A stretch of 32,000 nt of DNA from Thermococcus kodakarensis KOD1 (GTDB lineage Archaea; Methanobacteriota_B; Thermococci; Thermococcales; Thermococcaceae), in assembly GCF_000009965.1 (NCBI RefSeq), contig NC_006624.1:510001-542000 (forward strand), written 5' to 3'. The notes below the pieces were generated by a model. The model saw only the letters and a list, made by a program, of their open reading frames with translations. It had not been told where the DNA came from and made no database searches. Below, piece after piece: positions 4,269 to 16,862 of the stretch. Made by a program: the position numbers and the translations under genes. Position 1 is the stretch's first letter. Every line of letters begins with the position of its first letter.

Positions 4269-4477
4269 TCAACCACCAGCCAGCGTGGTCTTTTTCCCTC
4301 GGGAATAAGCTTGGCCAGTTCCCTGAGTTCTTCTGGAGTGAGGATGTAAACTTCCTCTGGAAGTTCAGCCTTGGACGGGATGTAGATAAGCCTTTGCTCA
4401 ACGTTATAGACTTTTCCTCTTTTCTTTTGCTTTTTGATCTGCTTTCGAACCTGAACCTTAAGCATTCTCCTCACCAT
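4265..4477 (-). CDS. Small basic protein, 70 aa (lysine/arginine-rich N-terminus), possible nucleic-acid binder
   Basis: The ATG lies about 21 nt downstream of a TATA box (leaderless geometry). N-terminus is MVRRMLKVQVRKQIKKQKKRGK. It overlaps the 183-aa gene by 4 nt. Confidence 0.6.
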   Translation of the reverse strand: MVRRMLKVQVRKQIKKQKKRGKVYNVEQRLIYIPSKAELPEEVYILTPEELRELAKLIPEGKRPRWLVVE

Positions 4478-4479
4478 TA

Positions 4480-4518
4480 TACGGTAGAAGGCTTTGCCTT
4501 ATAAACTTTTCTACCGTA
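4480..4518 (-). promoter_or_regulatory. Promoter enclosed by a perfect 10-bp inverted repeat (operator-like)
   Basis: TACGGTAGAA (4480-4489) and TTCTACCGTA (4509-4518) flank a 19-nt spacer. On the minus strand the spacer reads AAGTTTATAAGG (TATA at 4498-4505). The left arm ends 2 nt before the ATG of the 70-aa gene. Confidence 0.5.
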
Positions 4519-4530
4519 GAAAAGAAAAAG
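4519..4530 (-). terminator. Oligo-T terminator candidate ending the long minus-strand operon
   Basis: The minus strand reads CTTTTTCTTTTC, 13 nt after the TAA of the 101-aa gene and just before the inverted-repeat promoter. Confidence 0.45.
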
Positions 4531-4542
4531 GCGGCTGAGGTG

Positions 4543-4848
4543 TTATTCTTTCTCCCTGCAGTCCACTCCTATTAGTTCACATGCAATACTATTCAGTATC
4601 ATCAATTGTTCAAGGTCGTCGAGGATCTCATTGATCAGGATCCTGTCCTCTTTCTTGGGAGCATCGAGGTAAAGAATGCGGAGGCGCCGGACTATTGCAG
4701 TGATTAACTTTTTGTTCAGCTCCTTTTTAGGCAACCTTCCGGGCCTGCTGTTGCTACCCTTGTCTTTTCTATTTTCTTCCGGTTTTTGTTCCTCCTCGGA
4801 GAGTAGGCTGTCAAGTTCGTCGTTTACTACTGTGTAGGCCTCAGCCAA
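4543..4848 (-). CDS. Hypothetical 101-aa protein (acidic N-terminus, helical C-terminus), TTG start
   Basis: The TTG lies 1 nt after the stop of the upstream gene and is preceded by GGAGGGT. There is no internal Met before residue ~83. Confidence 0.5.
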   Translation of the reverse strand: MAEAYTVVNDELDSLLSEEEQKPEENRKDKGSNSRPGRLPKKELNKKLITAIVRRLRILYLDAPKKEDRILINEILDDLEQLMILNSIACELIGVDCREKE

Positions 4849-4849
4849 G

Positions 4850-5539
4850 TTAGACCCTCCAGCGCTTGAATGGGTTGTCTTCGAAGGCCACTTCTATGCC
4901 GCCGAATTTCTCTTCTTTTGTTCCCTCATCAGGGTTCTGTTGTTTAGTGCTCATGTAGGTCTTTATTCTCGGATTCATCTTCATGGCGTCTTCGACGACT
5001 TCTGGCACGCGGTAGCGGAGGATCGTAATAAGGTCCCAAAGCATGTCATTTTCCTTCTTGAGGGCTAGATAGAGTTTGGCGTCAGTTTCATCCAGGGCAA
5101 GTGGGATTGCTTCGTATTCGTAGTATTCGTTCATGATGAAGGCACTGGCTAGAATTGTTATCGTCTCGTCGCCGAAATAAGCGATTTTCTTGGGGACGCG
5201 AATTATGGCCGTTGGCGGGCTTTTACCCACGATCCTCAAGAGGCTATGGACTAGACTGTCGAGCCAGCTCGGAGGTCTGACTTGGTAGAGGATTACATAG
5301 TCATTGAGGTCCTCGCGAAGGCCAATGGGATAGCCGATTACTCGGCTCTCTTTCCCATTGAACCAAATAATGACGTTCTGCTTTGGCTCATAGACTTGGG
5401 CGAACTTATAGTTGAGTTCTCGGAGCTTTCTAGCGTGCTCTTGGATGCGTGCATCTGGAACTATTGGGATGGTATCAACTCTATCGGGGTAAACTTTTGT
5501 CTGCGAGGATTTCTCCTTCTTTTTCCCAAATCCGAACAT
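4850..5539 (-). CDS. Hypothetical 229-aa soluble protein of the element core
   Basis: I prefer ATG 5539 (MFGFGKKK...), preceded by GAGGTGAGAAGA, over the track start at 5602, which overlaps the ATPase gene by 53 nt. Confidence 0.75.
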   Translation of the reverse strand: MFGFGKKKEKSSQTKVYPDRVDTIPIVPDARIQEHARKLRELNYKFAQVYEPKQNVIIWFNGKESRVIGYPIGLREDLNDYVILYQVRPPSWLDSLVHSLLRIVGKSPPTAIIRVPKKIAYFGDETITILASAFIMNEYYEYEAIPLALDETDAKLYLALKKENDMLWDLITILRYRVPEVVEDAMKMNPRIKTYMSTKQQNPDEGTKEEKFGGIEVAFEDNPFKRWRV

Positions 5540-5549
5540 TCTTCTCACC

Positions 5550-6851
5550 TCACAAGCTTTGTGGCGGGCGGAAGTAGATCCGCTCGGTGTACATTTTATC
5601 AAAGGAGAACCAACCTCGGCCCTTTAACCAGGGCTTCACGTCCTTATACTCGCGAAAGCTCTTCACTTTGGGGTTCTTGATGCGGTGGAAGTCCCTGATG
5701 ACTTTCCTAAGAAGAAGCTCATCATCAGCGCTGGCTATTCTTCCGATGATGCCGATGTGTGCCGCCCCGTAGATCAGAAACGCTGGCAGGCCGTACATGT
5801 ATTGGGTCCCGCTTATGATGTTTACCCAATTGGAGCGGCCCTCTCTATTCAGCTTATCGAGGGCTTTTCTGCCATCAGGATGTTCGAGAAGGTTCTGAAC
5901 TTCATCAATGACGAAGAAGACGGGGGTGTTCCTGAAGCGGACGAACTTGGTGACGATGTACATGACTAAATGCTTGAAGATCCATGCCTCTTCTGCTGGT
6001 GTTAGCTCGGAGTTTGCTGAGAAGTCAATTACATTGATGACATCCGTAGAGAGCTCCGAAGTAAAGTCTTTGTTTTTTGAGAAGATCGTATCACTCCTCA
6101 GCAAAGCGCAGACTTCGAGGATGCTGAGGAGCGTTGAGCTTGGCACGGTTGAGTTTGGGCGGTATTTTTTCTCCCACTCGTAGCCGAACCTTTCAAGCTC
6201 ATCAGGATCTCGTTTTTTCTCTAGATCCCAAGCCTGTCGGATGACGCGGCCATAAATAGTATTCCTGTTGATCTGTGCAAGTCTAGCTATGAAATCAAAG
6301 TCCACGTCTTTGTAGCGGATTTTCCCTTCTCTAGCGATGCAGTTGTTGTCTTTTTCTATTGCTTCTAGGTTTCTCACCGGACGGAAGACTATCCTCTTTA
6401 CGGGGAACGCCTTTGGTTTTAGGCCATGCCAACTGAGGATCGAGTGTTTATCACCTGGAAATGGGGGATATAAGGTGAAGGGGTAGTTGGGCCAGCCAAA
6501 GGCGAAGTCCCCTGGCTTTCCGTGGAGCACTCCATCGTTTTTAAGAATGTTGTAATACTGGAGTAACGGTTGAAAGTTCTCTTTCACGAAGTCGGGGCCT
6601 TTCTTCTTCGTTATAATGGTCAAGAAATCCATTAGGTCTTTTGCCTTGTTCTTATCGTATTTCTGCTCGATGACGACTACTAGTGCTCCAGGGATGTTTT
6701 GGAAGATCTCTTCAGCTATGGCTCTCATAACTGTGGTCTTCCCGCTACCGCTTGGCCCGAGGAAAGTTATGTGGTTGGCTTCGTTTTCCTTTAGCTCCAC
6801 GTAGCGTTTTTCTTTGTCTGTGTTCTTCCCAATATAGATTGATACTCCCAT
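5550..6851 (-). CDS. P-loop NTPase of the HerA/FtsK/VirB4 (DUF87-like) class, 433 aa
   Basis: Walker A is GPSGSGKTT near the N-terminus. Walker B is VFFVIDEVQNL. Downstream lies GRSNWVNIISGTQ. AGAGGTGTGGG precedes the ATG. Confidence 0.88.
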   Translation of the reverse strand: MGVSIYIGKNTDKEKRYVELKENEANHITFLGPSGSGKTTVMRAIAEEIFQNIPGALVVVIEQKYDKNKAKDLMDFLTIITKKKGPDFVKENFQPLLQYYNILKNDGVLHGKPGDFAFGWPNYPFTLYPPFPGDKHSILSWHGLKPKAFPVKRIVFRPVRNLEAIEKDNNCIAREGKIRYKDVDFDFIARLAQINRNTIYGRVIRQAWDLEKKRDPDELERFGYEWEKKYRPNSTVPSSTLLSILEVCALLRSDTIFSKNKDFTSELSTDVINVIDFSANSELTPAEEAWIFKHLVMYIVTKFVRFRNTPVFFVIDEVQNLLEHPDGRKALDKLNREGRSNWVNIISGTQYMYGLPAFLIYGAAHIGIIGRIASADDELLLRKVIRDFHRIKNPKVKSFREYKDVKPWLKGRGWFSFDKMYTERIYFRPPQSL

Positions 6852-7009
6852 CTAACCCACACCTCTGTCTGCTTTCTATGATTGCAGGGGTCTGCGTGAC
6901 ATATCACGATTTCACACTTTTGGGCTTCCTCTACCCGTCTTTTTCAAGATGGGGGTTTCTCCTCTTGTGCTTTGAAAATAAAACTATGCAACTCTCCCAC
7001 AATGCTTTT

Positions 7010-7810
7010 TTAGAGGCCGCCAAGTTCCCACGACCTTTTCTTCCTGTACAGGCCATACCCAATCAAGCCCACAACGATAACGCTGAACGCTATTGCCTTG
7101 ATGATGACAGAGCCGACCAGCTTCTCTTTCTTTGCCTTCTCGATGTAGCTCTGCTCGCTCTTCTGCGAAGCATCTTCGAGAAGGGTCTGTATCATCTTCC
7201 TGTACTCATCGTTCTGCTGTTCAAGAAAGTCCGCTTTTGCCTTGACTGCGTTGTACTGGTTCGTCAGGTTCGCTAACTGTGCCTTGAGCTCGCGATTTTC
7301 CCTCGTCAGGTTCAGAATCTTTGCGTTCAGCTCGGCTGTGTTGGGCTGGTTCTTGAGCTTGCTCTGAAGCTCTGAAACCTGCTGCTTGAGCTGTTCGTTT
7401 TCTTTCGCGAGCTTGTTGTATTTGGTCGTCAGGTTCGCCAGCTTTTCTCTCAACTCTGTGTTCTCGTTCCTCAGCTCCGCGGCCTCGTCTGGAGCACTGA
7501 AACTCACTGCGAACGGCTTCTCGCTTTCAACGTGAACGTAGCCCTCATCGCCGAGCGCCGCGAAGAGTATTTCCAGGCCCTTAGTGGTGTAGTTCTCGCC
7601 GTCGCCGAGAATCGTTTGAATCTGGCTATCCTGCTCAATGACGAGGACGGTTTCATTTGTCTTGATGTTCTTATCAACGAGTAGGCTCAGGTCGTTGATG
7701 TAAACGCGCTCGCCGACACTAAGGCTCCCGCTCCAGTCGTAGAGAGTCCCTCCTGACGCGAGGCTGGCAGTCAGCAGGAACAAGATAAAGGCGAAAACCA
7801 GCCGCTTCAT
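7010..7810 (-). CDS. Secreted, C-terminally membrane-anchored coiled-coil protein, 266 aa
   Basis: Signal peptide MKRLVFAFILFLLTASLASG, a ~110-aa heptad-rich segment with an internal repeat, and a C-terminal TM (VIIKAIAFSVIVVGLIGYGLY) followed by RKKR. Confidence 0.85.
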   Translation of the reverse strand: MKRLVFAFILFLLTASLASGGTLYDWSGSLSVGERVYINDLSLLVDKNIKTNETVLVIEQDSQIQTILGDGENYTTKGLEILFAALGDEGYVHVESEKPFAVSFSAPDEAAELRNENTELREKLANLTTKYNKLAKENEQLKQQVSELQSKLKNQPNTAELNAKILNLTRENRELKAQLANLTNQYNAVKAKADFLEQQNDEYRKMIQTLLEDASQKSEQSYIEKAKKEKLVGSVIIKAIAFSVIVVGLIGYGLYRKKRSWELGGL

Positions 7811-7811
7811 A

Positions 7812-8279
7812 TCACTGTCCCTCCGGGTTGTTTACGATGACCGTCAACTTTTCAGGACTCAGAATCGTGATGTTGGCGATGTAGTACGTCGTGCCCGTGA
7901 AGTAGCCAGTCCCAATTATTGTTATGTTGTTGATAGTGACGTTCATCGGCTCCCAATAGATCGTATCCGGGAATATGAAGAAGAACTTGCCCTTGTTGGG
8001 GTCGTAGTCGGGCCTAATTGTCAGGTTCAGCTCCTGGATCGTCAGGTTTCCGCCAACGTAAACCAGCTCCTCGTACCTGTGTATGGTGAGTTCCGAAGTT
8101 GGGATTGTGGAGTTTGTGCTGTTAGAGGTGTTAAGTGGTATCGTGTAGGTCTCGTTGCCAAAGCCGATTATGATTCCACCATCACCCCAACCAATGCACC
8201 CTGCGGTACTCACAACCGCCGCGAGGACTATTATCATATATAATATATGAATATATGACTTCATACCTATGAACTTCAT
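7812..8279 (-). CDS. Secreted protein, possibly lipid-anchored, 155 aa, 9 N-glycosylation sequons
   Basis: I prefer ATG 8279, preceded by GGGGTGAGAAGA. The lipobox-like signal end is VVSTAGC. Sequons present are NET, NTS, NST x2, NLT x2, NVT and NIT x2. Confidence 0.7.
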   Translation of the reverse strand: MKFIGMKSYIHILYMIIVLAAVVSTAGCIGWGDGGIIIGFGNETYTIPLNTSNSTNSTIPTSELTIHRYEELVYVGGNLTIQELNLTIRPDYDPNKGKFFFIFPDTIYWEPMNVTINNITIIGTGYFTGTTYYIANITILSPEKLTVIVNNPEGQ

Positions 8280-8284
8280 TCTTC

Positions 8285-8767
8285 TCACCCCAAAAGGCCT
8301 TTCACCGAGACCGCTCCCGTCTTCCGGTTCACCCAAATGAAGCCAGCAAAGAGCTTAGAACCACCAGTATCGAGCTTCAGCTCGAAAACCCAATACTTCT
8401 GGCCGTCCTTTTCCTTCTCAGTGAGGCTCTTTTTGTCTGGATAGAGCTTGTAGTTGTACTTCTCCAGTTTCTTGTTGTAGCTGGCTAGATACTGCCGAGC
8501 GATCTCGTACGCCTGCTCGGCTGTGACCGGATAGTCCTCAACATAGGCCCCCTGGACTATCGTGAGGTGTCCGTCAGCCCACCGTATTGTGTTGTTGCTG
8601 AAGATGAATCCCTCAGTCGGATAACCAAGCTCATACAGTCTTTCTTTTAGTGGGTCGTGCTCGGCAAACGTCGAATAGCTGAAATAAGCCAAAAAAATTA
8701 AGCTAACCACCGCGAAGAGCCTTAGAATGACTTTTGAAAAAGATGGGGTGGAGCGGTGGGCGTACAT
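8285..8767 (-). CDS. N-terminally anchored protein with a PepSY-like domain, 160 aa
   Basis: I prefer ATG 8767, preceded by GAGGTGG; the track start at 8782 is TTG. TM is VILRLFAVVSLIFLAYFSY. The C-terminal pattern YWVFELKLDTGG...VNRKTGAVSVKG resembles PepSY. Confidence 0.65.
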   Translation of the reverse strand: MYAHRSTPSFSKVILRLFAVVSLIFLAYFSYSTFAEHDPLKERLYELGYPTEGFIFSNNTIRWADGHLTIVQGAYVEDYPVTAEQAYEIARQYLASYNKKLEKYNYKLYPDKKSLTEKEKDGQKYWVFELKLDTGGSKLFAGFIWVNRKTGAVSVKGLLG

Positions 8768-8778
8768 TTCAGCCCACC

Positions 8779-9582
8779 TCAACTAGAGCTCTGCTCGGTC
8801 ACAACAACCGGCCAGGTAGCGGTCGCGTTGGCCTGAATCACATATGGGGCGGTCTCGTTGTAGAGCATGGCCTTGTTGCCGCTGATGTCCTCAACTACAA
8901 AGTAGAATGCATAGTAGTCATTCGCAGTGACGTTGGTGATAGTGATTGGCAGGGCCGTAGCGTTAACCTCGGTGAAGGTCGTAGTGTTGCTCACGGTGTT
9001 GCTGGTGCCTAGATCAGCCCAATAAACGTAGTACTTGGCTATCTGGTCATTGTCAGTCGCGTTGAAGTCAATGCTGAAGGTTCCAGCCGTGCTGTTATAA
9101 TCGAGGCTAACACTTGAGAGGGTCGGAGCGGTCGTGTCGGTAACAGTAATGCTCTGAACGTCGCTTTCAAGGGTCTTGTCAGTGTCATAAACGACCTTGA
9201 CCTTGTAGTAAACCACGTCACCGAATTTGCTTGGAATCTCAGCCTTGTATGTGCCGTTCTCGGCTGTGGCGTTCAGGGCAGTATAGGTCGCGTTGTTCGG
9301 ATCCGCGACGTTGAGCGCGTAAAGAACCTGAACGCTGGATATGTTGAAGTGCTCCTCGTTGGCCAGTTGGAAGCTCACGAGAACGTGGCCAGTGCTCTGG
9401 TCAACTATAGCCAAAAGGTTGCTGACGGCGAGTTCATAAGTGGTGTTCTCAGTACTGTTGTCGCTCAGGGCATTGGTTATGTCAACAAAGCCGCCTCCGC
9501 CGCCGTGATAGGCCCACCAGCCGATGGCGGCGAAGAGTAGTATCAGGCCAACGGTTATGATCTGTCTCTCTTTCTTTCTCAT
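8779..9582 (-). CDS. N-terminally anchored, heavily N-glycosylatable beta-rich (Ig/FN3-like) protein, 267 aa
   Basis: TM is IITVGLILLFAAIGWWAY. I counted 13 N-x-S/T sequons by hand. Composition is T/S/N/V-rich, typical of archaeal surface proteins. Confidence 0.8.
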   Translation of the reverse strand: MRKKERQIITVGLILLFAAIGWWAYHGGGGGFVDITNALSDNSTENTTYELAVSNLLAIVDQSTGHVLVSFQLANEEHFNISSVQVLYALNVADPNNATYTALNATAENGTYKAEIPSKFGDVVYYKVKVVYDTDKTLESDVQSITVTDTTAPTLSSVSLDYNSTAGTFSIDFNATDNDQIAKYYVYWADLGTSNTVSNTTTFTEVNATALPITITNVTANDYYAFYFVVEDISGNKAMLYNETAPYVIQANATATWPVVVTEQSSS

Positions 9583-9585
9583 TTC

Positions 9586-9816
9586 TCAAACACCTCCAAA
9601 CGACTTAACAAGTTCTGGAATCTGTTTCAGGAAAGAAAAGAAAGTGTCAACTAAGCCGAATGACTTTAAGAGTGCCAGGGCCCCGAGAGCGTAGAACACC
9701 AAGCTCACCTTGCCTTTTGCCAGGACGCCGATGAGGATGAGGATTAGGCCGAGCGCGAGGTATGGGTGGCTTCCTGCAAGGTTGTGGAGCTGATCAATGA
9801 TGCTGTTCGCGTCCAT
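9586..9816 (-). CDS. Small two-TM membrane protein, 76 aa
   Basis: Two hydrophobic helices (YLALGLILILIGVLA and LVFYALGALALL). Gaps to both neighbours are 1-3 nt. Confidence 0.65.
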   Translation of the reverse strand: MDANSIIDQLHNLAGSHPYLALGLILILIGVLAKGKVSLVFYALGALALLKSFGLVDTFFSFLKQIPELVKSFGGV

Positions 9817-9817
9817 G

Positions 9818-10153
9818 TCAATCCCTCCTGTTCTTTGCTGCTAATCCTGCCAGAACGCCAGCTAAGCCGAAGCCCGTGACTCCCTTAATGAATTCCAGGG
9901 CCGTTGCTGTTGGATCGCCGGTAATCGCCAGCATGAAGATTCCGCCGAGGATAAGGAATGCCGCCGCGTCCCAAAGTCCCCAACTGTCTAGGTCGCTGAT
10001 TCTGTACACTGCGAGCCCTATGAGGGCCGAGGGAATGAAGAGCGCCCAAAAGCCACTGAGGCCGAGGAGGTTGCCTGCTGTAACCATGCTGTTCTGGAAG
10101 TGGAAAATGCAAAGGAGGTAAGCGATGAGAGCTGCTGCAACCCTGCCGAGCAT
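9818..10153 (-). CDS. Polytopic membrane protein, 111 aa (3-4 TM)
   Basis: Almost entirely hydrophobic and Gly/Ala-rich. It is tightly packed in the operon. Confidence 0.7.
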   Translation of the reverse strand: MLGRVAAALIAYLLCIFHFQNSMVTAGNLLGLSGFWALFIPSALIGLAVYRISDLDSWGLWDAAAFLILGGIFMLAITGDPTATALEFIKGVTGFGLAGVLAGLAAKNRRD

Positions 10154-10164
10154 TGTCAGTCACC

Positions 10165-10692
10165 TCAGATCAGCCCGGGGATGTGTGGAAGTATTGAAAT
10201 GAATGCACCTTTTGTGGCGATCGTTGCGGCGGTCCAGAACCAAAGTATCAGCTCATTGTTGCCAGTCTCTGGAGCGAAGATGTATAGGCCGATCAATCCG
10301 GAGACGAAAAGATTTGCTGGCCCGACATCGCCGATGTTGAGCGTCATGGTTCCTGTGATTGCCCACATGACCCCTAGCATTCCGAGCGCTGCGAAGAGCA
10401 AACTGATGAGGATTGCACCTACTCTGCTCTTCTTTTTGCCTATTGAGCCGTAGATTCCCGCGTAGAGCTTGTTGTAGTAGTCGTTCTTATCTGCGAGCTT
10501 ATCGAAGAGTTCAACGAGCACTACGAATGCCAGCGGCACCGATGCCATTGCTTCTGTTGTCTGCTGTACTGTTATGCTGTGTTGTCCTGCATACCACAAA
10601 AGTAAACCAAGAAAGCCCGAGGCTAGGGCCGTCTTTAAGGCCCATTGCCCGGCCTTCAGTTTTTTTGGTTGTTGTTCCTCCCCCATCTTCAA
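10165..10692 (-). CDS. Polytopic membrane protein, 175 aa
   Basis: 4-5 hydrophobic segments separated by a charged loop (DKLADKNDYYNKLY...GKKKSR). Confidence 0.75.
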   Translation of the reverse strand: MKMGEEQQPKKLKAGQWALKTALASGFLGLLLWYAGQHSITVQQTTEAMASVPLAFVVLVELFDKLADKNDYYNKLYAGIYGSIGKKKSRVGAILISLLFAALGMLGVMWAITGTMTLNIGDVGPANLFVSGLIGLYIFAPETGNNELILWFWTAATIATKGAFISILPHIPGLI

Positions 10693-10700
10693 TCACCACC

Positions 10701-12839
10701 TCAAAGCAGTTTTCTCCAAACCACGAAAGCGCCAACTAACACGAACACTATTGCGAGAAGCGCCCAAAGTGGAATTCCGAGAATCTTCTTACTCAGCATG
10801 CTCTTTGCAGTTGTTAGGATGTCAATGTGTGGCTTGTACTCATCGGCAAGCTGACTCAGCTCATCACCCTTCTGTGCGTCAAGTTCGGCCTGTTCGTACT
10901 CGCCGTAGAGCGCCTTCTCAGCCGCGCTCATGTAGAAGTCTCCGGCCTGCTCAAGCTTTTTGGCAACGTTTAGCCAGTTGAGGTACTCTTGGACAGCATC
11001 GGTCTGTGTAATTTTGTTGAGAGCCTCAATGGCATCCTGGTATGCCTGTATCGCTTTCTCAGCGTAGAGGGAAGCCTTTTCATTGCCCTCGGCGTCTGCC
11101 TTCTTCTTGAGATCCTCGGCGGCAGTGATCTTCTCCTGGAGACCGTTAATGAGGCTGGCTGCGATCGCTTTAGTCTGATTGATCTCACTCGCTTCGAGCT
11201 TGCCATCGTCAGTAAACTGAACGAGCTGGTCTATCTGATTATCCGCCAACACTGTCCTTGTGTTCGGGATAACAGAGACCTTCGGATTGACAACAAGCCA
11301 GAGCGGTATTGTGATATTGTCATCTCTCGTGATCGTGAAGTAAGCCAGTCCATAGACCTTATAGGTTAACGTGCTCAGGTCTTCAGTGTAGTGGGCTGTC
11401 AGGAGCTTTTGAGTTGGAGTGTCCGGACTCATCGTGCCGAGGTTTCCAAATATTGAATCTGCAACTGTCCAGCTTAGATCCTTGTACTCTCTCACTGCTA
11501 CGAACCTGAAGTCGTCATTGAAGGACGGATTAAGAGGCTCAAAATAGCCTGGATTAGGCACAATATAGAACTTGTAGTCTGCTGTTGAACCAATGACATG
11601 AACTGGAGTCGCAAAGGTCAGTATAATGAAGTTTGAGAGCGCTCCAGCGTACTTCTCCTGATAAAGCGCCCATTTCGTTGAGGCTTCAGTATTGAGGAAC
11701 TTAACTGGTAGAGATGCATAGAAACCATCTGCAAGATCGGCGATGTCGTGGGCCATGCTCACGTGCCGCCAGGCGCTGGTGGTGTAAGCAGTATACTTAA
11801 TGTCATCATTCCTAACGAAGACGTAGCACGTAGAGGTGTTTGAGTCCCACTTATGGTTAGGTTGAGCAGTACAGGATGACTGATCAGTGTACTGCGGGTC
11901 GTTCTGCCAGACCTCACGGTAAGCGTCAACCTTAACGAAGATCTCCCACGTTGAAGTGTTCGCGCTGAATATCTGTTCGATCAAGTCTCTAGTGACCTGA
12001 CCGGTTTGAATAGCGTTCTGCACCTGGTAGACCCAATCGTCCGGAACCTTGAGAATTGTTGAATAAACCACACTTTGGCCGTTTAGGCCCTCGCTACCAG
12101 TTCCGTAATCCCAAACGCGCTTCCAGAGCGGGACGCTACTGTTCTCCTTCTGAAGATAGATCTCAACACTGCGAAGGTGTATGACGTTAAATGGTATGTT
12201 GCTCTCTTTTGTGTAGAGTTTAGCCTGGACGGGGAAAGCTGAAAAGCCATAGATCTTTGAGGGAGCATAGATCTCAATCCAGAGGTCGCCAGTTGCTCCA
12301 TCTTCCTTAGTGTCATACCTCACCAGATCAGAGCGGAGCTTCGCGGTAAGCTCTGCAATCCTTTCATATGCCTGCTGGTTAGCGTCGTCTATGACTTTAT
12401 TGAGTTCATCGTCATCGTTTTTGACGGTAGTTCCATTTGCTTGGCGCTCGTAAGTTATTGTTGCACCACTGTCACTATCTCCACCCCGAGACCCTCCAAA
12501 CGCTAGTTCTAGCGCTGAATATGTCAAACCTGCGGCTGCCATTCCCATTGCAACGCATGCACCTGTACCGAAACCCATGGTCCCTGCCATGCATGCTCCG
12601 CCAACGACAACACCCACTACTGTCGAGACGACCATTTTGCCGGTGTTGCTCGCCCTCTCTTTGACACCATTCCACCAGCTGCCGAAGTCAAACGCTAGGG
12701 CTGGCTGTGCATAGATGCTTGTGGTAAAAATGAGGAGTAACAGTAACCCTGACAGGCGCTTTTTTCTATTACAGGTTTTCCTTTCCTGCTCTTCTTCCTC
12801 GCCTCCTTTCTGCTCAAAAAGTGAAAAGAAGAGCCTCAT
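10701..12839 (-). CDS. Large secreted protein, 712 aa, with a Gly-rich hydrophobic segment, big beta-rich ectodomain, helical stalk and C-terminal TM anchor
   Basis: I prefer ATG 12839, preceded by GGAGGAGGTGAGGT. The signal peptide ends in IYAQPALA. The hydrophobic Gly/Ala/Met segment is VVGVVVGGACMAGTMGFGTGACVAMGMAAAG. The C-terminal TM is IPLWALLAIVFVLVGAFVVW. Confidence 0.85.
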   Translation of the reverse strand: MRLFFSLFEQKGGEEEEQERKTCNRKKRLSGLLLLLIFTTSIYAQPALAFDFGSWWNGVKERASNTGKMVVSTVVGVVVGGACMAGTMGFGTGACVAMGMAAAGLTYSALELAFGGSRGGDSDSGATITYERQANGTTVKNDDDELNKVIDDANQQAYERIAELTAKLRSDLVRYDTKEDGATGDLWIEIYAPSKIYGFSAFPVQAKLYTKESNIPFNVIHLRSVEIYLQKENSSVPLWKRVWDYGTGSEGLNGQSVVYSTILKVPDDWVYQVQNAIQTGQVTRDLIEQIFSANTSTWEIFVKVDAYREVWQNDPQYTDQSSCTAQPNHKWDSNTSTCYVFVRNDDIKYTAYTTSAWRHVSMAHDIADLADGFYASLPVKFLNTEASTKWALYQEKYAGALSNFIILTFATPVHVIGSTADYKFYIVPNPGYFEPLNPSFNDDFRFVAVREYKDLSWTVADSIFGNLGTMSPDTPTQKLLTAHYTEDLSTLTYKVYGLAYFTITRDDNITIPLWLVVNPKVSVIPNTRTVLADNQIDQLVQFTDDGKLEASEINQTKAIAASLINGLQEKITAAEDLKKKADAEGNEKASLYAEKAIQAYQDAIEALNKITQTDAVQEYLNWLNVAKKLEQAGDFYMSAAEKALYGEYEQAELDAQKGDELSQLADEYKPHIDILTTAKSMLSKKILGIPLWALLAIVFVLVGAFVVWRKLL

Positions 12840-12843
12840 TACC

Positions 12844-14730
12844 TCACCTCCTCCTGGCAAGTCCAACTAAAGCGAGAAGCCCAAGCCCGCCAACACCGAG
12901 CCAGAGCCAGGTGTTCCCACTTGAGCCGCCGAAGAGCGTGAACCCTCCAGAATCTCCAATGCTAACGGCAACCTTGTCCTGGAAGACCGTCGCGTTGCCC
13001 TGAAGAACCTGCACCTGGAGCTCGTAGGCGTCGTAAGTCAGGTCTTCTGGCACGGCGAAGGCTATGCTAACATCCTTCTCGGTGAGCGGGCCGACCGAAA
13101 TGCTCTGGTTGATCTCGCTCGGCAGGAAGCCGCCCGAGACCTTGATCGTGTAATACTGCACATCGCTCGACGGGTTCTTGAAGTGGAGGACAATCGTGCC
13201 CTCGCCACCCTTCTCGACTGTCAGCTGCTTCGTGGTGAGCGTGATTGCAGGATTCACGGTGACGTCATAGGTCGCGACCTGGCCGTTCCACTGGAGTTCG
13301 AGCGTGTACTGGCCCTCACTCGGCACGTTGACGCTGAAGGAGTACGCCTCGTAGGGGCTGAAGGCGTGGGAATCACTCCAAACCTCGTTGCCCTGGCTGT
13401 CCTTCAGAACCGCCGTGATGAGGTAACTCTGGCCACTGCTTTCCGAGATGCGAAGCTCATTCTGGCCGACCTGCCATTCAGAGGGCATCTGAACCGAAAA
13501 CGGGAGCGGCTCGACGGTGTAGGTGACACTCTTTGTCGTCGTGTAGGTCTTGCTCATTATTGCGTCATGACTCTCAAAGCTCAGAGTGAACCCGTGCTGG
13601 CCGACCGCGCCCGCCTTGAACTTGATGGAAATCTGTGTCGGGCCTGAAATGTCGCCGAGATAGTACTTGCCCGACTCGGGAGAGACGGCCTGGCCGTCTT
13701 TCTGGACTTCGAGGACGTTGGAGAGGCCGCTCAGGCTCAGGTAAGTGTTGTAAGCCGCGTCGGTGCTGATCGGCGAGAGAGTGAAAGTGAGCGTGTAAAT
13801 CGTGTTCTCGGGAATGCTGATGTCAGACGGGAAGTTTTCAAACTTGAAGGCGGCGCTGTCAGGGTACATCTCGACACTGACAGTCATGTCACCCTGGACG
13901 TCTATCGTCTTCGTGACGCTCCAGTACCCGCTTTTCTCGAAAGTGAGTGTATGAGTGCCCTTAGTTAAATCTAAACTTCCACCATCGTCCAGCGTGCCGA
14001 TAACGTTACCGTTCTCCTTCACCGTAACGCCCGTGAGGGGTTGATTACTCAGAGCATCCTTGAGCGAGAGCTGAATATGATACTCAACCTCATAAATCTG
14101 TATATTATTAAACTCGACCTTCCCCTGCCAGCCCAAGTTATTACCAATGCCTACAGCCGGAACACCAAAAACTACCTTCTCGATTGACAACGGGTCAATA
14201 TGCTGCTGAACATTCGTCAGATTATACAATAAGAAACCGTCCTTATATACCAGTAAATCCCACTCCGTGCCCCTCTGCTGAAACTCAATTCTAAAATGTA
14301 CGTACTTATTCCTAAAGCTCGTCCCTGCATCAATAGAACCACCTATAGTGTCGCTACTCCCATCATACTGAGGATAATTAGCCCCTGAGATTTTCCTAAC
14401 CTCGATTGAACCCGTATCATACTCAATGAAAGTTAAGCCAACCCCTGAACTCCCTGACATAAAAGACACACCAGATAAAACGTTATTTGCGTACGCCTGA
14501 TAATCAAACTCGATAGCCTGAAACTCAGTAACATTAAGCCAAGCCCTGACGTACTCAGACCCCGTAGCATCTAAGACCAACCGACCGTCCGATATTGTTA
14601 CATTAGACGAAGACCCAAAGATATACACCCCGAAATCTCCACTAGACGGAATATAAACAGCCCCAACCGTGCCCGTTGCCAGCGTTCCGAACAGCACCAA
14701 CAGAGCGAGCAAAACACCGAGTTTCTTCAT
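12844..14730 (-). CDS. Secreted adhesin-like protein, 628 aa: ConA/LamG-like lectin-type domain, PEGA/CarboxypepD_reg-like domain, Ig-like repeats, C-terminal TM anchor
   Basis: I prefer ATG 14730 (MKKLGVLLALLVLFG...), preceded by GGAGGGATGA. The PEGA-like segment is GVTVKENGNVIGTL...LTFEKSGYWSVTKTIDV. The C-terminus is WLWLGVGGLGLLALVGLARRR. Confidence 0.85.
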   Translation of the reverse strand: MKKLGVLLALLVLFGTLATGTVGAVYIPSSGDFGVYIFGSSSNVTISDGRLVLDATGSEYVRAWLNVTEFQAIEFDYQAYANNVLSGVSFMSGSSGVGLTFIEYDTGSIEVRKISGANYPQYDGSSDTIGGSIDAGTSFRNKYVHFRIEFQQRGTEWDLLVYKDGFLLYNLTNVQQHIDPLSIEKVVFGVPAVGIGNNLGWQGKVEFNNIQIYEVEYHIQLSLKDALSNQPLTGVTVKENGNVIGTLDDGGSLDLTKGTHTLTFEKSGYWSVTKTIDVQGDMTVSVEMYPDSAAFKFENFPSDISIPENTIYTLTFTLSPISTDAAYNTYLSLSGLSNVLEVQKDGQAVSPESGKYYLGDISGPTQISIKFKAGAVGQHGFTLSFESHDAIMSKTYTTTKSVTYTVEPLPFSVQMPSEWQVGQNELRISESSGQSYLITAVLKDSQGNEVWSDSHAFSPYEAYSFSVNVPSEGQYTLELQWNGQVATYDVTVNPAITLTTKQLTVEKGGEGTIVLHFKNPSSDVQYYTIKVSGGFLPSEINQSISVGPLTEKDVSIAFAVPEDLTYDAYELQVQVLQGNATVFQDKVAVSIGDSGGFTLFGGSSGNTWLWLGVGGLGLLALVGLARRR

Positions 14731-14734
14731 CTCT

Positions 14735-15088
14735 TCATCCCTCCACTCCGTAGTCAACACCAATGCCGCCGAGCAAGGCCAGCAGAAGCGCGAGGTTCTC
14801 AACAGAGTCCTTGAGCGCGTCGAGAAGAGCTGCACCGTTCGCCTGCCAGAGTGCCGCCAGGAAGCTCAAGAGCATCATGTCATAGAGGAGCACGCGCCAG
14901 CTTGATGTAAAGGGCTCGATGATTACTAAAGCCTTGTTTCCCTTGTTCGTGAGCGCCCAATGCATGAGCACGCCGCCAACAGCTCCGACCGCTAGAGCCT
15001 CCTTTGTCATCATGGGCCAAGCGATGTAGTACCACGCTCCCGCGAGCACAAAGAAGATGATTAGCTGGATGAGGCTCTTTGTCTTCAT
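14735..15088 (-). CDS. Polytopic membrane protein, 117 aa
   Basis: 3-4 hydrophobic helices. ATGA overlap with the upstream small ORF. Confidence 0.7.
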   Translation of the reverse strand: MKTKSLIQLIIFFVLAGAWYYIAWPMMTKEALAVGAVGGVLMHWALTNKGNKALVIIEPFTSSWRVLLYDMMLLSFLAALWQANGAALLDALKDSVENLALLLALLGGIGVDYGVEG

Positions 15089-15261
15089 ACTGCCATCACC
15101 TTGCGCGCCTTTTTGAGCTTAGAAACCTCTGCGAGGAGCTGTTGCTTCTTCCTCGTGACTCGCGCGAGCTCCCTCTGCGCTGCCTCAATCTGTCTCCTCA
15201 AACGCTCAGCGTACCGATCGAGAGTTTCAATCTCCCGAGAAATCCCATCTAGGTCGTCCAT
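15085..15261 (-). CDS. Small coiled-coil protein, 58 aa (MDDLDGISREIETLDRYAERLRRQIEAAQRELARVTRKKQQLLAEVSKLKKARKVMAV)
   Basis: Internal ATG 15261 is preceded by GGAGGCGGTAGT. The upstream part of the 109-aa track ORF is low-complexity, AT-rich and probably non-coding. Confidence 0.5.
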   Translation of the reverse strand: MDDLDGISREIETLDRYAERLRRQIEAAQRELARVTRKKQQLLAEVSKLKKARKVMAV

Positions 15262-15580: not shown

Positions 15581-15588
15581 TCCTCCGC

Positions 15589-15753: not shown

Positions 15754-15894
15754 TCATTTCTTCATGACTTTGCCATATTTCTCGGCCCATTTGCGGGCCT
15801 CCCGCCACTCCATAAAGGCTTCGTAGGCAAATGCGGAGAGCACTACCGCGAAGACTCCGCCGAAAGCAAGCCAAATAACGGAGAGGATGGTCAT
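15754..15894 (-). CDS. Possible 46-aa single-TM micro-protein translationally coupled to the integrase
   Basis: ATGA overlap with the integrase stop codon. GAGGTGAGGAG lies upstream. Sequence is MTILSVIWLAFGGVFAVVLSAFAYEAFMEWREARKWAEKYGKVMKK. Confidence 0.45.
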   Translation of the reverse strand: MTILSVIWLAFGGVFAVVLSAFAYEAFMEWREARKWAEKYGKVMKK

Positions 15895-16844
15895 TTCTCC
15901 TCACCTCTCAACGAGATGCCCAATTTGGCGCGTTTCGAGCGCCAGCCGCCTTCTAAAACGAGCTTCAGGTCGTCAACAACCGAGGAATACCACTCATCGG
16001 CCAGGATCTCAAGGTTGAGGTAGTGTTTTTCCAGAACTCCGCGCTCGGCCCTGCCCTGGATGAAGTTAATGACCTCAAATGGGCAGCCTTTCCTCGCGAG
16101 GAACGTTGCGAACCACTCCCTTACCGCGGCCGCGGAGAACTGAACGCTCTTCTCAGTGTTTCTAACCGAGCGGAGCTTGACGCGTAGCCTGTTCTTTACA
16201 TGTTCATAGTCAAGGGGAAGTTGCTCAAGCTCAGTGAGGGCAAAGTCGCGCGGTAAGTAAGCGTAGAAGGCTTTTTTCTGGCCCTTCTGTTTGTGAATTG
16301 GATACTTGGCAATGTTTGGGTACTCTCTTGGGAGGATCAGTTTCTCAGGATCAAACTCATTGAAGAGCTCAATTACTGCCTTTAGTCTCAGGCCAGAGAA
16401 GACGAGGGTCTTGTAGATCGTCGCCAGAATAGGGTCTTTTTGTTCGTAGTACTTTAGAGCCTCCCTAATCTGCGCGTCTGGAACGTTCACTTTTCTCGGG
16501 TGTGTTGGCTTGACCCAAATAATCTCCTTCAGATCAAGGTACTGGTCGCGAGTGATTATGCCGCGATTCCTCAGGAACTTCGCAAAGCTCCTCAGGGCCT
16601 TGGTTATGTGTCTTTTGTAGCCTGTCTCGGCAAGGATCTCCTGGAGGTCTTCATATGTCTTGATAGCGTATGTATTGAAAAACTTCTCAAGGGTTGAAAT
16701 ATAGCGGAATTTCGTTTCCTCGGTGGAGACTCTGAGGGAGAGCCATTTTGCATAGGCATCTTGGAGCTGAGACCACTTTTCGTTTAGGCTTATATCTGGC
16801 GAGGACGTCCCCTTCTGCCTTTCGAGCCCGCGCCCCGGGTTCAA
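15891..16844 (-). CDS. int: SSV-type tyrosine integrase, C-terminal fragment of a gene split by integration (Int-C)
   Basis: Tyrosine-recombinase C-terminal pattern (AAAVREWFATFL ... GRAERGVLEKHY). The 317 codons contain no Met codon, and the track start is a TTG inside the tRNA T-loop. The first ~24 codons are the reverse complement of the tRNA 3' half. Confidence 0.88.
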   Translation of the reverse strand: MNPGRGLERQKGTSSPDISLNEKWSQLQDAYAKWLSLRVSTEETKFRYISTLEKFFNTYAIKTYEDLQEILAETGYKRHITKALRSFAKFLRNRGIITRDQYLDLKEIIWVKPTHPRKVNVPDAQIREALKYYEQKDPILATIYKTLVFSGLRLKAVIELFNEFDPEKLILPREYPNIAKYPIHKQKGQKKAFYAYLPRDFALTELEQLPLDYEHVKNRLRVKLRSVRNTEKSVQFSAAAVREWFATFLARKGCPFEVINFIQGRAERGVLEKHYLNLEILADEWYSSVVDDLKLVLEGGWRSKRAKLGISLRGEEK

Positions 16845-16862
16845 ATCCCGGCCGGGGCACCA
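16817..16862 (+). repeat. attR: 3' half of a tRNA-Glu(UUC)-like gene (anticodon loop to CCA), not a complete tRNA
   Basis: Reading left to right: anticodon loop CTTTCGA, stem strand GCCCG, variable CGCC, T-arm CCGGG-TTCAAAT-CCCGG, acceptor strand CCGGGGC, discriminator A, encoded CCA. The upstream sequence cannot form the 5' acceptor strand, D-arm or 5' anticodon stem. Confidence 0.8.

What the first reader, a model, noticed from the sequence alone, without database searches (positions are those of the whole stretch)
4543..15088. Thirteen-gene envelope module: one HerA/FtsK/VirB4-class ATPase plus ten secreted or membrane proteins and no recognisable virion or T4SS parts
Thirteen minus-strand genes run from 15088 to 4543 with spacers of 1-11 nt or 4-nt overlaps; the only larger gap is 158 nt at 6852-7009. 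The block ends in an oligo-T stretch (4519-4530). The products are as follows. Four are small polytopic membrane proteins (117, 175, 111 and 76 aa). One is a 712-aa secreted protein with a Gly/Ala/Met-rich hydrophobic segment, a large ectodomain, a helical stalk and a C-terminal anchor. One is a 628-aa anchored adhesin-like protein with lectin-like, PEGA-like and Ig-like parts. Two are sequon-dense surface proteins. The rest are a PepSY-like protein, an anchored coiled-coil protein, a 433-aa P-loop ATPase (GPSGSGKTT, VFFVIDEVQNL) and two soluble proteins (229 and 101 aa). This gene content matches what is known for the conserved core of the pT26-2/TKV family of Thermococcales and Methanococcales integrated plasmids, whose function has not been established experimentally. 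I recognise no capsid, portal, pilin with a class III signal peptide, relaxase or coupling protein. The pairing of small membrane proteins with a VirB4/HerA-like ATPase is loosely reminiscent of the crenarchaeal Ced DNA-import system. My inference is a dedicated envelope-spanning machine for DNA transfer, cell-cell contact or particle/vesicle formation.
Basis: partly seen in the sequence, partly recalled or inferred. Interest (0 to 1): 0.78.

Follow-up and report, generated by a model that had tools for sequence, protein, structure and literature searches.

The report
Known pT26-2 plasmid core in TKV3
This gene block is the already published conserved core of the integrated plasmid TKV3 of Thermococcus kodakarensis: one HerA-type motor ATPase plus many membrane and surface glycoproteins, probably a DNA-transfer or cell-contact machine whose function has never been tested.

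Summary
Thirteen tightly packed minus-strand genes lie at 15088-4543. All have syntenic homologues under purifying selection.

The window is T. kodakarensis KOD1, genome 510001-542000. The block is TK0611-TK0599 of the integrated element TKV3. It is the "highly conserved region" (t26-4p to t26-16p) of the pT26-2 plasmid family described by Soler 2010 and Badel 2019, who already proposed a novel DNA/protein transfer system.

What I add:
- The ATPase (TK0601) folds as a HerA-clade ring translocase. Foldseek gives HerA E 1e-11; A32-type packaging ATPases score about 1e-4; no VirB4 appears in the top 50.
- Its family is tiny: 13 representatives among 1.84 billion.
- The block is at least two transcription units. 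A published primary start site lies in the 158-nt gap, 26 nt below a conserved TATA-like box.
- It probably starts one gene earlier, at an unannotated 58-aa gene.
- The 628-aa protein has a hypervariable head.
- The ATPase and its partner swap as a cassette.

No T4SS, Ced, pilin, capsid or defence component was recognised. The "PepSY-like" and "lectin-like" labels are unsupported.

My best reading (confidence about 0.45) is a contact-dependent DNA-transfer apparatus not recognisably related to T4SS. Novelty: already known.

The parts
15088..15261 (-). 58-aa soluble coiled-coil protein, homologue of t26-3p. Its stop overlaps the start of the next gene (ATGA), so it is the probable first gene of the envelope unit. 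It is not annotated in the KOD1 gene table.
   Evidence: tblastn to t26-3p gives 76% over 58 aa. Sequence read. The gene table jumps from TK0611 to TK0612.
14735..15088 (-). TK0611, 117 aa, t26-4p homologue; small polytopic membrane protein
   Evidence: a homologue is also present in pMEFER01 (hmmsearch E 1e-18)
12844..14730 (-). TK0610, 628 aa, t26-5p core protein. It has a signal peptide, a hypervariable N-terminal head of about 215 aa, a conserved CarboxypepD_reg/PEGA-like domain plus beta-rich stalk, and a C-terminal TM anchor.
   Evidence: Pfam sub-threshold hits. Head identity is 15-32% against 63-78% for the rest. TM segments.
10701..12839 (-). TK0609, 712 aa, t26-6p core protein. It has a charged leader plus signal-like segment, a Gly/Ala-rich glycine-zipper hairpin, two Ig-like domains and a helical domain (fold solved as PDB 2WB7), and a C-terminal TM anchor.
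   Evidence: Pfam PF22092/PF22265/PF20984 at E 1e-59 to 1e-73. PDB 2wb7 at E 1e-136. Glycine-zipper families hit in homologues.
10165..10692 (-). TK0608, 175 aa, t26-7p core polytopic membrane protein (4-5 hydrophobic helices)
   Evidence: no Pfam, NCBIfam or PDB relatives
9818..10153 (-). 111 aa, t26-8p homologue, four TM helices; also conserved in Methanococcales
   Evidence: hmmsearch E 6e-11 and 9e-11 in L010 and L002
9586..9816 (-). 76 aa, t26-9p homologue: two hydrophobic helices joined by a KGK loop
   Evidence: profile search of PDB finds nothing meaningful
8779..9582 (-). TK0605, 267 aa, t26-10p homologue: N-terminal anchor and an ectodomain with 13 sequons
8285..8782 (-). 165 aa, t26-11p core protein: N-terminal TM anchor plus an alpha/beta ectodomain of unassigned fold
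   Evidence: PepSY hit only at E 0.063 in 1 of 8 members; no PDB relatives
7812..8279 (-). TK0603, 155 aa (174 aa from the TTG): signal peptide with a conserved lipobox (..AGC/SGC), sequon-dense. This is the variable 'position 12' gene.
7010..7810 (-). TK0602, 266 aa, t26-13p core protein: signal peptide, small beta domain, about 125-residue coiled coil, C-terminal TM anchor and a short basic tail
   Evidence: Pfam and NCBIfam coiled-coil hits, including TIGR04211 SH3_and_anchor at E 7.5e-7; TM segments
6852..7009 (-). Conserved 158-nt intergenic region. A TTTTATTTT box lies at 6975-6983. The published primary TSS is at 6953. A 102-nt leader and a GAGGTG ribosome-binding site follow.
   Evidence: sequence; alignment with pT26-2, pGE2 and L001; TSS table of Jager 2014, genome position 516953 minus strand
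5550..6851 (-). TK0601, 433 aa, t26-14p core ATPase of the HerA/FtsK superfamily (DUF87). Invariant residues: Walker A K38, Walker B D316/E317, R336/R339, Q350.
   Evidence: Pfam DUF87; alignment A1; AF2 model pLDDT 93.6; Foldseek against PDB, top 50 all HerA/TdpA/DndH; profile against PDB
4850..5539 (-). TK0600, 229 aa, t26-15p core soluble protein: basic-aromatic N-terminus (MFGFGKKK), a beta domain with weak PRC-barrel resemblance, and a long helix. It co-varies with the ATPase.
4543..4848 (-). TK0599, 101 aa, t26-16p homologue: acidic N-terminus, helical C-terminus
   Evidence: co-induced with TK0600 and TK0601
4519..4530 (-). Oligo-T run (archaeal terminator-like) closing the ATPase unit, followed by a TATA-like AAAGTTTATAA box ahead of TK0598
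15891..16862 (-). Context: the C-terminal fragment of the SSV-type integrase (TK0614), ending in the att site. The att site is the 3' half of a tRNA gene on the + strand (about 16815-16862). This marks the right border of TKV3.
   Evidence: Pfam PF16795 at E 2e-60; the integrase aligns only from residue 67 of t26-1p; sequence; split-integrase model in PMC7253208

Best explanation
The block is the conserved core of the pT26-2-family integrated plasmid TKV3. I think it most likely builds a contact-dependent DNA-transfer (mating) apparatus that is not recognisably related to type IV secretion.

Shown:
- The products are a cytoplasmic HerA-type P-loop ATPase with intact catalytic residues, two soluble partners, four small polytopic membrane proteins, three single-anchor proteins and four glycoproteins.
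- The order is conserved across two archaeal orders.
- All genes are under purifying selection.
- The ATPase-TK0600-TK0599 trio has its own promoter.

Inferred:
- The ATPase forms a hexameric ring that pumps DNA, as HerA, FtsK and CedB-type motors do.
- TK0600 tethers the ATPase to the membrane through its basic-aromatic N-terminus and beta-barrel domain.
- The small polytopic proteins (4p, 7p, 8p, 9p) form the membrane platform or channel.
- The coiled-coil protein 13p and the anchored 11p bridge the space under the S-layer.
- The 628-aa protein uses its exchangeable head to recognise a partner cell.
- The 712-aa protein uses its glycine-zipper segment to perturb or fuse the partner membrane.
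- The sequon-dense proteins decorate the structure.
For: Family identity and synteny.

ATPase evidence:
- The AF2 model has pLDDT 93.6.
- Its best PDB folds are all HerA-type DNA translocases (E 1e-11, TM 0.5-0.59).
- The family profile hits HerA at 3e-6.
- Invariant K38, D316/E317, R336/R339 and Q350 in 25 homologues.
- The best NCBIfam hit is the DNA importer CedB, though far below threshold.

Envelope evidence:
- Ten of 13 products are membrane or secreted proteins.
- The same architecture recurs in Methanococcales.
- The variable head on the 628-aa protein fits partner recognition.

Other evidence:
- The ATPase and 15p are inherited together as a cassette, with a breakpoint inside 13p.
- The ATPase unit has its own TSS and is co-induced with RPA genes in a chromatin mutant.
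- No virus hallmark was found and there are no relatives in virus collections.
- Published authors reached the same working hypothesis.
Against: - No transfer of any pT26-2-family element has been shown.
- There is no relaxase, coupling protein, VirB4, VirB6 or pilin signal. PLSDB types the three plasmids as non-mobilizable, though that only reflects the missing known relaxase.
- The envelope genes TK0602-TK0608 and TK0611 are nearly silent in culture, and no primary TSS was mapped upstream of them.
- The proven Thermococcus conjugative plasmid pT33-3 uses recognisable VirB4 and VirD4 homologues, which this module lacks.
- HerA-type ATPases also serve repair and defence.
- Pairs of 5p and 6p homologues exist in M. 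maripaludis without the ATPase.
Confidence: 0.45

Rival explanations
1. Capsid-less particle or vesicle module. The two large type-I glycoproteins would be spikes, the small polytopic proteins internal membrane proteins, and the ATPase would load DNA into budding vesicles, as proposed for pleolipoviruses and plasmid vesicles. The element would spread as an enveloped particle.
For: - The gene content resembles spike plus membrane proteins plus NTPase.
- The glycine-rich hydrophobic segment after a signal-like cleavage site, together with a C-terminal anchor in the 712-aa protein, has the topology of a fusion protein.
- The SSV-type integrase is shared with fuselloviruses.
- The ATPase belongs to PHROG 7035 and weakly hits a packaging-ATPase PHROG at 1e-9.
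- Authors of the 2026 virome preprint concede that some 'plasmids' may be viruses with unrecognised capsids.
- Badel 2019 also considers vesicle spread.
Against: - No virions were seen, and neither element DNA nor element proteins were found in vesicles (Soler 2010, data not shown).
- There are no relatives of the ATPase in 2.9 million IMG/VR contigs or 50,697 phage records.
- The other twelve products hit no PHROG; the coiled-coil protein's PHROG hits lie over its coiled coil.
- A32-type packaging ATPases match the model poorly (E about 1e-4, TM about 0.25), against HerA at 1e-11.
- PHROG 7035 membership may only reflect predicted proviruses in that library (my inference).
Confidence: 0.25
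2. Domesticated cell-surface system kept for the host's benefit (adhesion, cell-cell contact or fusion, envelope remodelling), with no role in moving the element itself.
For: - The core is retained under purifying selection in an element whose integrase is split, and in elements that lost replication genes.
- TKV2 and TKV3 deletions impair growth (Tagashira 2013, as cited).
- 5p/6p pairs occur alone in M. maripaludis.
Against: - The envelope genes are almost silent in culture, so the growth effect may come from the variable region.
- A DNA-translocase-type ATPase is an invariant core member.
- CRISPR spacers target the family, according to Badel 2019.
Confidence: 0.15
3. Defence or exclusion system built round a HerA-like ATPase, with surface proteins blocking entry of related elements.
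For: The ATPase hits the PADLOC model mad8 at E 3e-16 and weakly hits HerA and DndH defence models. The best PDB folds include the Sir2-HerA, DUF4297-HerA and TdpAB defence complexes.
Against: - Only the ATPase matches; none of the nine other products scanned hits a matching defence component (the other PADLOC hits are coiled-coil or weak Drt4 matches).
- No nuclease, Sir2 or methylase partner is present.
- 15p has no invariant acidic residue typical of a nuclease (Glu64 and Asp94 are invariant in the 25-row A6) and no enzyme fold.
- Ten membrane or secreted proteins are unlike any known defence operon.
Confidence: 0.05

Closest known systems
pT26-2 plasmid family core (pT26-2, pGE2, pMEFER01, TKV2/TKV3, TGV1, PHV1; Soler 2010, Badel 2019)
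   Same: Same genes in the same order: t26-3p/4p through t26-16p. The ATPase is 91% and 15p 93% identical to pT26-2. The same 158-nt gap is present. The integrase is SSV-type and split at a tRNA att site. This window is TKV3 itself.
   Different: Nothing essential differs. TKV3 is a mosaic. Its t26-13(C-terminal part)-to-18 segment is pT26-2-like (78% nt). Its 6p gene and the head of 5p are too diverged for nucleotide alignment.
Ced (Sulfolobales) and Ted (Thermoproteales) DNA-import systems, domesticated T4SS derivatives (Beltran 2023)
   Same: Both combine a HerA/VirB4-superfamily ATPase with several small polytopic membrane proteins in archaea. A 76-aa two-helix hairpin with a basic loop has the topology of a VirB2/CedA1 pilin. 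CedB is the top NCBIfam hit for the ATPase.
   Different: The CedB hit is 23.6 bits (cut-off 700) and covers the P-loop region only. No CedA, CedA1, VirB6 or VirB2 similarity was detected by Pfam, NCBIfam or PDB profiles. The ATPase is 433 aa and closest in fold to HerA. This module adds large anchored glycoproteins that Ced and Ted lack, and it is carried on a mobile element.
Archaeal conjugative plasmids (pNOB8 family; pT33-3 of Thermococcus)
   Same: Both are mobile elements of hyperthermophilic archaea with clustered membrane proteins, FtsK/HerA-superfamily ATPases and no recognisable relaxase.
   Different: Those plasmids encode sequence-recognisable VirB4 and VirD4 homologues that are required for transfer. 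This module has a single HerA-like ATPase and neither of those.
HerA ring translocases (HerA-NurA repair; Sir2-HerA, DUF4297-HerA and TdpAB defence)
   Same: Best structural and profile matches. It has a DUF87 domain, Walker A/B motifs, conserved arginines and a glutamine sensor.
   Different: There is no full N-terminal HAS barrel, only a short beta hairpin before the P-loop. There is no nuclease or Sir2 partner. It sits in an operon of envelope proteins.
Pleolipoviruses and haloarchaeal plasmid vesicles (comparison from my own knowledge, not tested beyond PHROGs and BLAST)
   Same: Similar parts list: anchored spike-like glycoproteins, small internal membrane proteins and an NTPase, with no capsid protein.
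   Different: No sequence relation was found. No particles have been observed for this family.

Membership tests
pT26-2 plasmid family (core module) | Homologues of the seven core genes t26-5p, 6p, 7p, 11p, 13p, 14p and 15p | tested here: met
   tblastn of all seven against pT26-2, pGE2, pMEFER01 and a Methanothermococcus locus, E 1e-7 to 0; Pfam T26-6p domains
pT26-2 plasmid family (core module) | Conserved gene order t26-4p to t26-15p | tested here: met
   Collinear with the GU056179 annotation
pT26-2 plasmid family (core module) | SSV-type integrase split at a tRNA att site when integrated | tested here: met
   PF16795 at E 2e-60; N-terminal 66 residues missing; tRNA 3' half at 16815-16862
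HerA/FtsK superfamily ATPase | P-loop fold with Walker A/B, conserved arginine and polar sensor; HerA-like structure | tested here: met
   DUF87 at 29.9 bits, above the cut-off of 23.2; invariant residues; Foldseek against HerA, E 1e-11; nearest outgroups are DUF87/AAA_10 proteins
Type IV secretion / Ced / Ted | VirB4/CedB-family ATPase | tested here: not met
   CedB model gives 23.6 bits against a cut-off of 700, over residues 5-66 only. No VirB4 in the PDB profile hits or in the top 50 folds.
Type IV secretion / Ced / Ted | VirB6/CedA/TedA-like polytopic channel protein | tested here: inconclusive
   The 175-aa core protein has 4-5 TM helices, but no Pfam, NCBIfam or PDB-profile hit. Ced and Ted components are themselves unrecognisable to each other by sequence, so absence of a hit is weak evidence.
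Type IV secretion / Ced / Ted | VirB2/CedA1/TedC-like pilin | tested here: inconclusive
   The 76-aa hairpin has the right topology but no hits. The TrbC/VirB2 hit on the N-terminus of the 712-aa protein is E 0.03-0.008 and found in only 2 of 6 homologues; the others hit glycine-zipper families. PDB profile hits are compositional.
Type IV secretion / Ced / Ted | VirD4-type coupling protein and relaxase (conjugative T4SS) | tested here: not met
   No such family hit for any product of the block or its flanks. The 183-aa 't26-18p, TraG-like' protein has no P-loop in its sequence and no Pfam or NCBIfam hit.
Virus (virion module) | Major capsid protein, portal, or A32/terminase-type packaging ATPase | tested here: not met
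   The only PHROG hits are for the ATPase and, over its coiled coil, for the 266-aa protein. No phage or IMG/VR relatives. A32 ATPases score E about 1e-4 and TM about 0.25. The family is treated as plasmids for lack of an MCP in the literature.
Archaeal type IV pilus | Class III signal peptide pilin, PilB/PilC-type ATPase and platform | tested here: not met
   No T2SSE/PilB or PilC hit. None of the N-termini read has the G/A at -1 before the hydrophobic stretch (inspection only, no dedicated predictor).
HerA-based defence systems (Sir2-HerA, DUF4297-HerA, MADS) | HerA-like ATPase paired with an effector (Sir2, nuclease, methylase) | tested here: not met
   The ATPase hits mad8 at E 3e-16, but no partner component is found. 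The 15p model has no enzyme-like fold.

The most novel reading that the evidence does not exclude
The pT26-2 core is a third, T4SS-independent kind of prokaryotic DNA-transfer machine. A HerA-type motor would be docked by a PRC-barrel-like adaptor to a platform of small membrane proteins. Partner choice would be set by an exchangeable head on one glycoprotein. Membrane breaching or fusion would be done by a glycine-zipper glycoprotein of unique fold. This could be tested directly in the genetically tractable T. kodakarensis.
Probability: 0.3. Interest if true: 0.8.

Novelty: already known. Interest (0 to 1): 0.36.

Why it matters
How plasmids move between hyperthermophilic Euryarchaeota is largely unknown. 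Only pT33-3 has been shown to conjugate.

The pT26-2 family is distributed worldwide in Thermococcales and Methanococcales. Its invariant core has no assigned function fifteen years after its description.

If the core proves to be a DNA-transfer or cell-fusion machine unrelated to T4SS, it would be a new class of horizontal gene transfer apparatus. The copy in this window sits in T. kodakarensis, the main genetic model of the group, so the question can be tested experimentally.

The scan adds no new object, only refinements of a known one.

Tried and rejected
1. VirB2/TrbC pilin domain at the N-terminus of the 712-aa protein. Pfam gives E 0.03 (0.008 on the isolated 150 aa), but only 2 of 6 homologues hit it. 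The others hit Gly-zipper_Omp/YMGG/Rick_17kDa. The best PDB profile hit (9p0a 'Pilin') is the signal peptide of a Tat-dependent haloarchaeal bundling pilin, and the next is SlyB. I reject it as compositional.

2. NurA-like nuclease partner for the HerA-like ATPase (15p). There is no invariant acidic residue in the 21-sequence alignment (Glu64 and Asp94 are invariant in the 25-row A6). The AF2 model is only moderate (pLDDT 65.7; the core at residues 50-170 is good). The best folds are PRC-barrel proteins at E 0.04. Rejected.

3. Family-profile searches of PDB with 7p, 9p and 11p found nothing.

4. 'PepSY-like' (11p) and 'lectin-like' (head of 5p): not supported.

5. Virus link through collections: no phage-record or IMG/VR relatives.

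6. Defence reading via PADLOC mad8: only the ATPase matches.

7. Technical dead ends:
- The pT33-3 paper is not held.
- ARAGORN and Rfam find no complete tRNA or RNA family in the window.
- The genome-contig scan returned only 7 loci and not the source genome.

Full report
**What is in the sequence.** Spacers are 1-11 nt or a 4-nt overlap. There is one 158-nt gap at 6852-7009. An oligo-T run lies at 4519-4530. A Kyte-Doolittle scan finds hydrophobic segments in ten of the thirteen products. The 267-aa and 174-aa proteins carry 13 and 9 sequons. The genes are not chance ORFs. Each has homologues in the same order in pT26-2, pGE2, pMEFER01, a Methanothermococcus chromosome and Thermococcus MAG contigs. 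Nei-Gojobori dN/dS is 0.02-0.30 wherever synonymous sites are not saturated. It is lowest for the ATPase (0.03) and its downstream partner (0.018), and highest for the 628-aa surface protein (0.24-0.30).

**Where the window comes from.** Exact look-up shows three products to be proteins of Thermococcus kodakarensis KOD1. The ATPase is BAD84790.1, the 712-aa protein is BAD84798.1 and the 229-aa protein is BAD84789.1. The gene table in the supplement of Jager et al. 2014 gives TK0601 at 515550-516851 and TK0609 at 520701-522839. Window coordinate is therefore genome coordinate minus 510000. The block is TK0611-TK0599 inside TKV3 (TK0575-TK0614).

The right border of the element is in the window. 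The integrase (15891-16844, Pfam PF16795, E 2e-60) aligns to the pT26-2 integrase only from residue 67. It ends in the 3' half of a tRNA gene on the opposite strand (...GGTTCAAATCCCGGCCGGGGCACCA, about 16815-16862). This is the split 'suicidal' integrase arrangement described for this family. No complete tRNA is in the window, so the other end lies left of position 1.

**Identity of the module.** The block is the 'highly conserved region' of the pT26-2 family.
- The 712-aa protein carries the three Pfam domains defined on t26-6p (E 1e-59 to 1e-73). It matches the crystal structure 2WB7 at E 1e-136.
- The ATPase is 91% identical to t26-14p.
- The genes map one-to-one on t26-4p to t26-16p.
- All seven published core genes (5p, 6p, 7p, 11p, 13p, 14p, 15p) are found in the two Methanococcales loci.
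- Those loci also keep a t26-8p homologue (hmmsearch E about 1e-10), small two-helix membrane proteins and a protein with 15-17 sequons at the same positions.

The literature already describes this region.

**The ATPase.** An AlphaFold2 model built on 25 homologues is confident (pLDDT 93.6, pTM 0.91).
- Foldseek against the PDB returns only HerA-type ring translocases in the top 50: HerA-NurA of T. kodakarensis, Sulfolobus HerA, Sir2-HerA, DUF4297-HerA, TdpA and DndH. E runs from 1e-11 to about 1e-6, and TM (query-normalised) from 0.37 to 0.59.
- The family profile finds HerA at about 3e-6 in PDB sequences and no VirB4.
- Against predicted viral structures the best hit is 5e-7 (an unnamed protein). 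A32-type packaging ATPases score about 1e-4 with TM about 0.25.
- Walker A Lys38, Walker B Asp316/Glu317, Arg336/Arg339 and Gln350 are invariant, so the enzyme is probably active and oligomeric.
- An exhaustive HMMER search of 1.84 billion representatives finds only 13 at E <= 1e-30, then a cliff. The next hits are generic DUF87/AAA_10 proteins and giant multi-FtsK-domain proteins.
- NCBIfam's best hit is the DNA importer CedB, but at 23.6 bits (cut-off 700) over residues 5-66. PADLOC's best hit is mad8 at E 3e-16.

The correct label is 'isolated HerA-clade member of the HerA/FtsK superfamily'. 'VirB4-class' is not specifically supported.

**The other products.**
- *628-aa protein.* It has sub-threshold CarboxypepD_reg/PEGA hits. 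Its first 215 or so residues are essentially unalignable between family members (15-32% identity), while the rest is 63-78% identical. This pattern is typical of an exchangeable recognition head. 'Lectin-like' has no profile support.
- *712-aa protein.* It has a charged leader, a signal-like segment ending A-x-A, and a Gly/Ala-rich hairpin that in homologues hits glycine-zipper families. Then come the solved ectodomain and a C-terminal anchor. The weak TrbC/VirB2 hit is compositional.
- *175-, 111-, 76- and 117-aa proteins.* These membrane proteins have no relatives in Pfam, PHROGs, NCBIfam or PDB.
- *165-aa protein.* It is 'PepSY-like' only at E 0.063 in one of eight homologues.
- *'174-aa' ORF.* It is better read as the 155-aa TK0603 with a lipobox conserved in four homologues.
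- *229-aa protein.* The model is moderate (pLDDT 65.7, core 81-92). It shows a beta domain plus a long helix, with only weak PRC-barrel resemblance (E 0.04). The alignment shows no invariant acidic residues in the 21-row alignment A2 (the 25-row A6 has Glu64 and Asp94 invariant), so a NurA-like nuclease is unlikely.

**Operon anatomy.** The block is not one operon. Published differential RNA-seq lists a primary TSS for TK0601 at genome 516953 on the minus strand, which is window 6953. It lies 26 nt downstream of the centre of a TTTTATTTT box (6975-6983). That box is conserved in pT26-2, pGE2 and a MAG. The leader is 102 nt.

TK0599, TK0600 and TK0601 are co-upregulated (values 5.1-5.7 in the paper's table) together with RPA genes in a histone mutant. 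The same 2014 supplement gives very low read values for TK0602, TK0603, TK0608 and TK0611 (3-7), against 36-48 for TK0601 and TK0600. No primary TSS is listed upstream of TK0611.

At the upstream end, a 58-aa t26-3p-like gene (15088-15261) overlaps TK0611 by ATGA. It is preceded by an oligo-T and an AT-rich stretch. It probably opens the envelope unit and is missing from that gene table.

**Mechanism.** I commit, at about 0.45, to a contact-dependent DNA-transfer apparatus not recognisably related to T4SS. A HerA-type hexamer would act as the DNA pump, tethered by TK0600. The four small polytopic proteins would form the platform or channel. The coiled-coil protein 13p and the anchored 11p would act as spacers under the S-layer. 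The 628-aa protein would serve as adhesin. The 712-aa protein would be the membrane-active partner.

Only the parts list, fold class, conservation, selection and transcription structure are shown. Every functional step is inferred.

Against this reading:
- No transfer has ever been shown.
- There is no relaxase or coupling protein.
- The envelope genes are silent in culture.
- The one proven Thermococcus conjugative plasmid, pT33-3, relies on recognisable VirB4 and VirD4 homologues.

The rivals are:
- a capsid-less particle or vesicle module (0.25). It is supported by the spike-like topology and the SSV-type integrase. It is opposed by negative particle and vesicle searches, the absence of relatives in virus collections and the poor match to packaging ATPases;
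- a domesticated surface system useful to the host (0.15);
- a defence or exclusion system (0.05).

**Verdict.** The functional inference is plausible, but it is the published hypothesis and remains unproven. Novelty is 'already known'. Interest is moderate, because the open question sits in a genetically tractable host. The refinements found here could guide experiments: the HerA-clade placement, the separate ATPase promoter, the variable head, the ATPase-15p cassette, the lipobox gene and the unannotated first gene.

Noticed in passing
window 16815-16862 (+) and 15891-16844 (-): The 3' half of a tRNA gene (T-arm plus acceptor end and CCA) lies inside the 5' end of a truncated SSV-type integrase gene. 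This is the att site and right border of TKV3. The complete tRNA and the integrase N-terminal fragment must lie left of the window.
   Followed up: partly
window 15088-15261 (-): A 58-aa coiled-coil gene, 76% identical to t26-3p, overlaps TK0611 by ATGA. It is absent from the KOD1 gene table used by Jager 2014 (TK0611 is followed directly by TK0612).
   Followed up: partly
window 15404-15592 (-) and 15600-15894 (-): TK0612 is a ribbon-helix-helix-like protein (t26-2p homologue, weak RelB-antitoxin hits). Between it and the integrase lie two tiny hydrophobic ORFs, one annotated TK0613, that have no counterpart in pT26-2.
   Followed up: no
window 14065 and 14083 (-), inside TK0610: Two published internal transcription start sites fall at codons 216-222 of the 628-aa gene. 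This is exactly where the hypervariable head ends and the conserved stalk begins. TK0610 also has the highest read value of the envelope genes.
   Followed up: no
window 3655-7292 versus pT26-2 9596-13290: Mosaic structure. One continuous 78% nucleotide match starts in the middle of the 13p gene and runs through the ATPase, 15p, 16p, 17p and 18p. Other Thermococcus elements (L005, L007) carry ATPase and 15p only 37-41% and 25% identical, although their 5p, 8p, 10p and 11p are 63-78% identical. The ATPase and its partner therefore swap as a cassette.
   Followed up: partly
window 7812-8279 (-); L008 (pT26-2) 8626-9108 (+): The 'position 12' gene encodes a signal peptide plus lipobox (xGC) glycoprotein on the same strand as its neighbours in TKV3, pGE2 and two MAGs. 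A non-homologous one sits at that position in pT26-2, where GenBank instead annotates t26-12 on the opposite strand. In L007 the slot holds a 103-aa ORF of unknown function, not examined further.
   Followed up: partly
window 12839 and 5539 (N-termini of the 712-aa and 229-aa proteins) and homologues: Both families start with a similar short motif of aromatic residues followed by lysines (MRLFFSLFEQK.. / MFFNFFKKK.. against MFGFGKKK.. / MFERFRKKK..). It could be a shared membrane-targeting or partner-binding signal.
   Followed up: no
window 1-3000: GC content drops to 0.37-0.41 in the variable part of TKV3. A 2025 preprint reports that the AT-rich variable regions of TKV2 and TKV3 denature and cluster on heat shock when reverse gyrase is absent.
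   Followed up: no
window 4265-4510 (-): Directly after the oligo-T there is an AAAGTTTATAA box about 25 nt before the ATG of the 70-aa basic protein (TK0598, t26-17p). TK0598 has by far the highest read value in the region (264). No primary TSS for TK0598 itself is listed in the table.
   Followed up: no
window 10701-12839 (-): RefSeq re-annotations carry a 644-aa version of TK0609, against 712 aa in the original record. The shorter start would remove the leader and signal-like segment that are conserved in homologues.
   Followed up: no
window 170-1333 (-): A 387-aa protein of the variable region matches PHROG 22469 (unknown function) at E 5e-53 over its whole length. Like PHROG 7035 for the ATPase, this may only reflect predicted proviruses in that library.
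   Followed up: no
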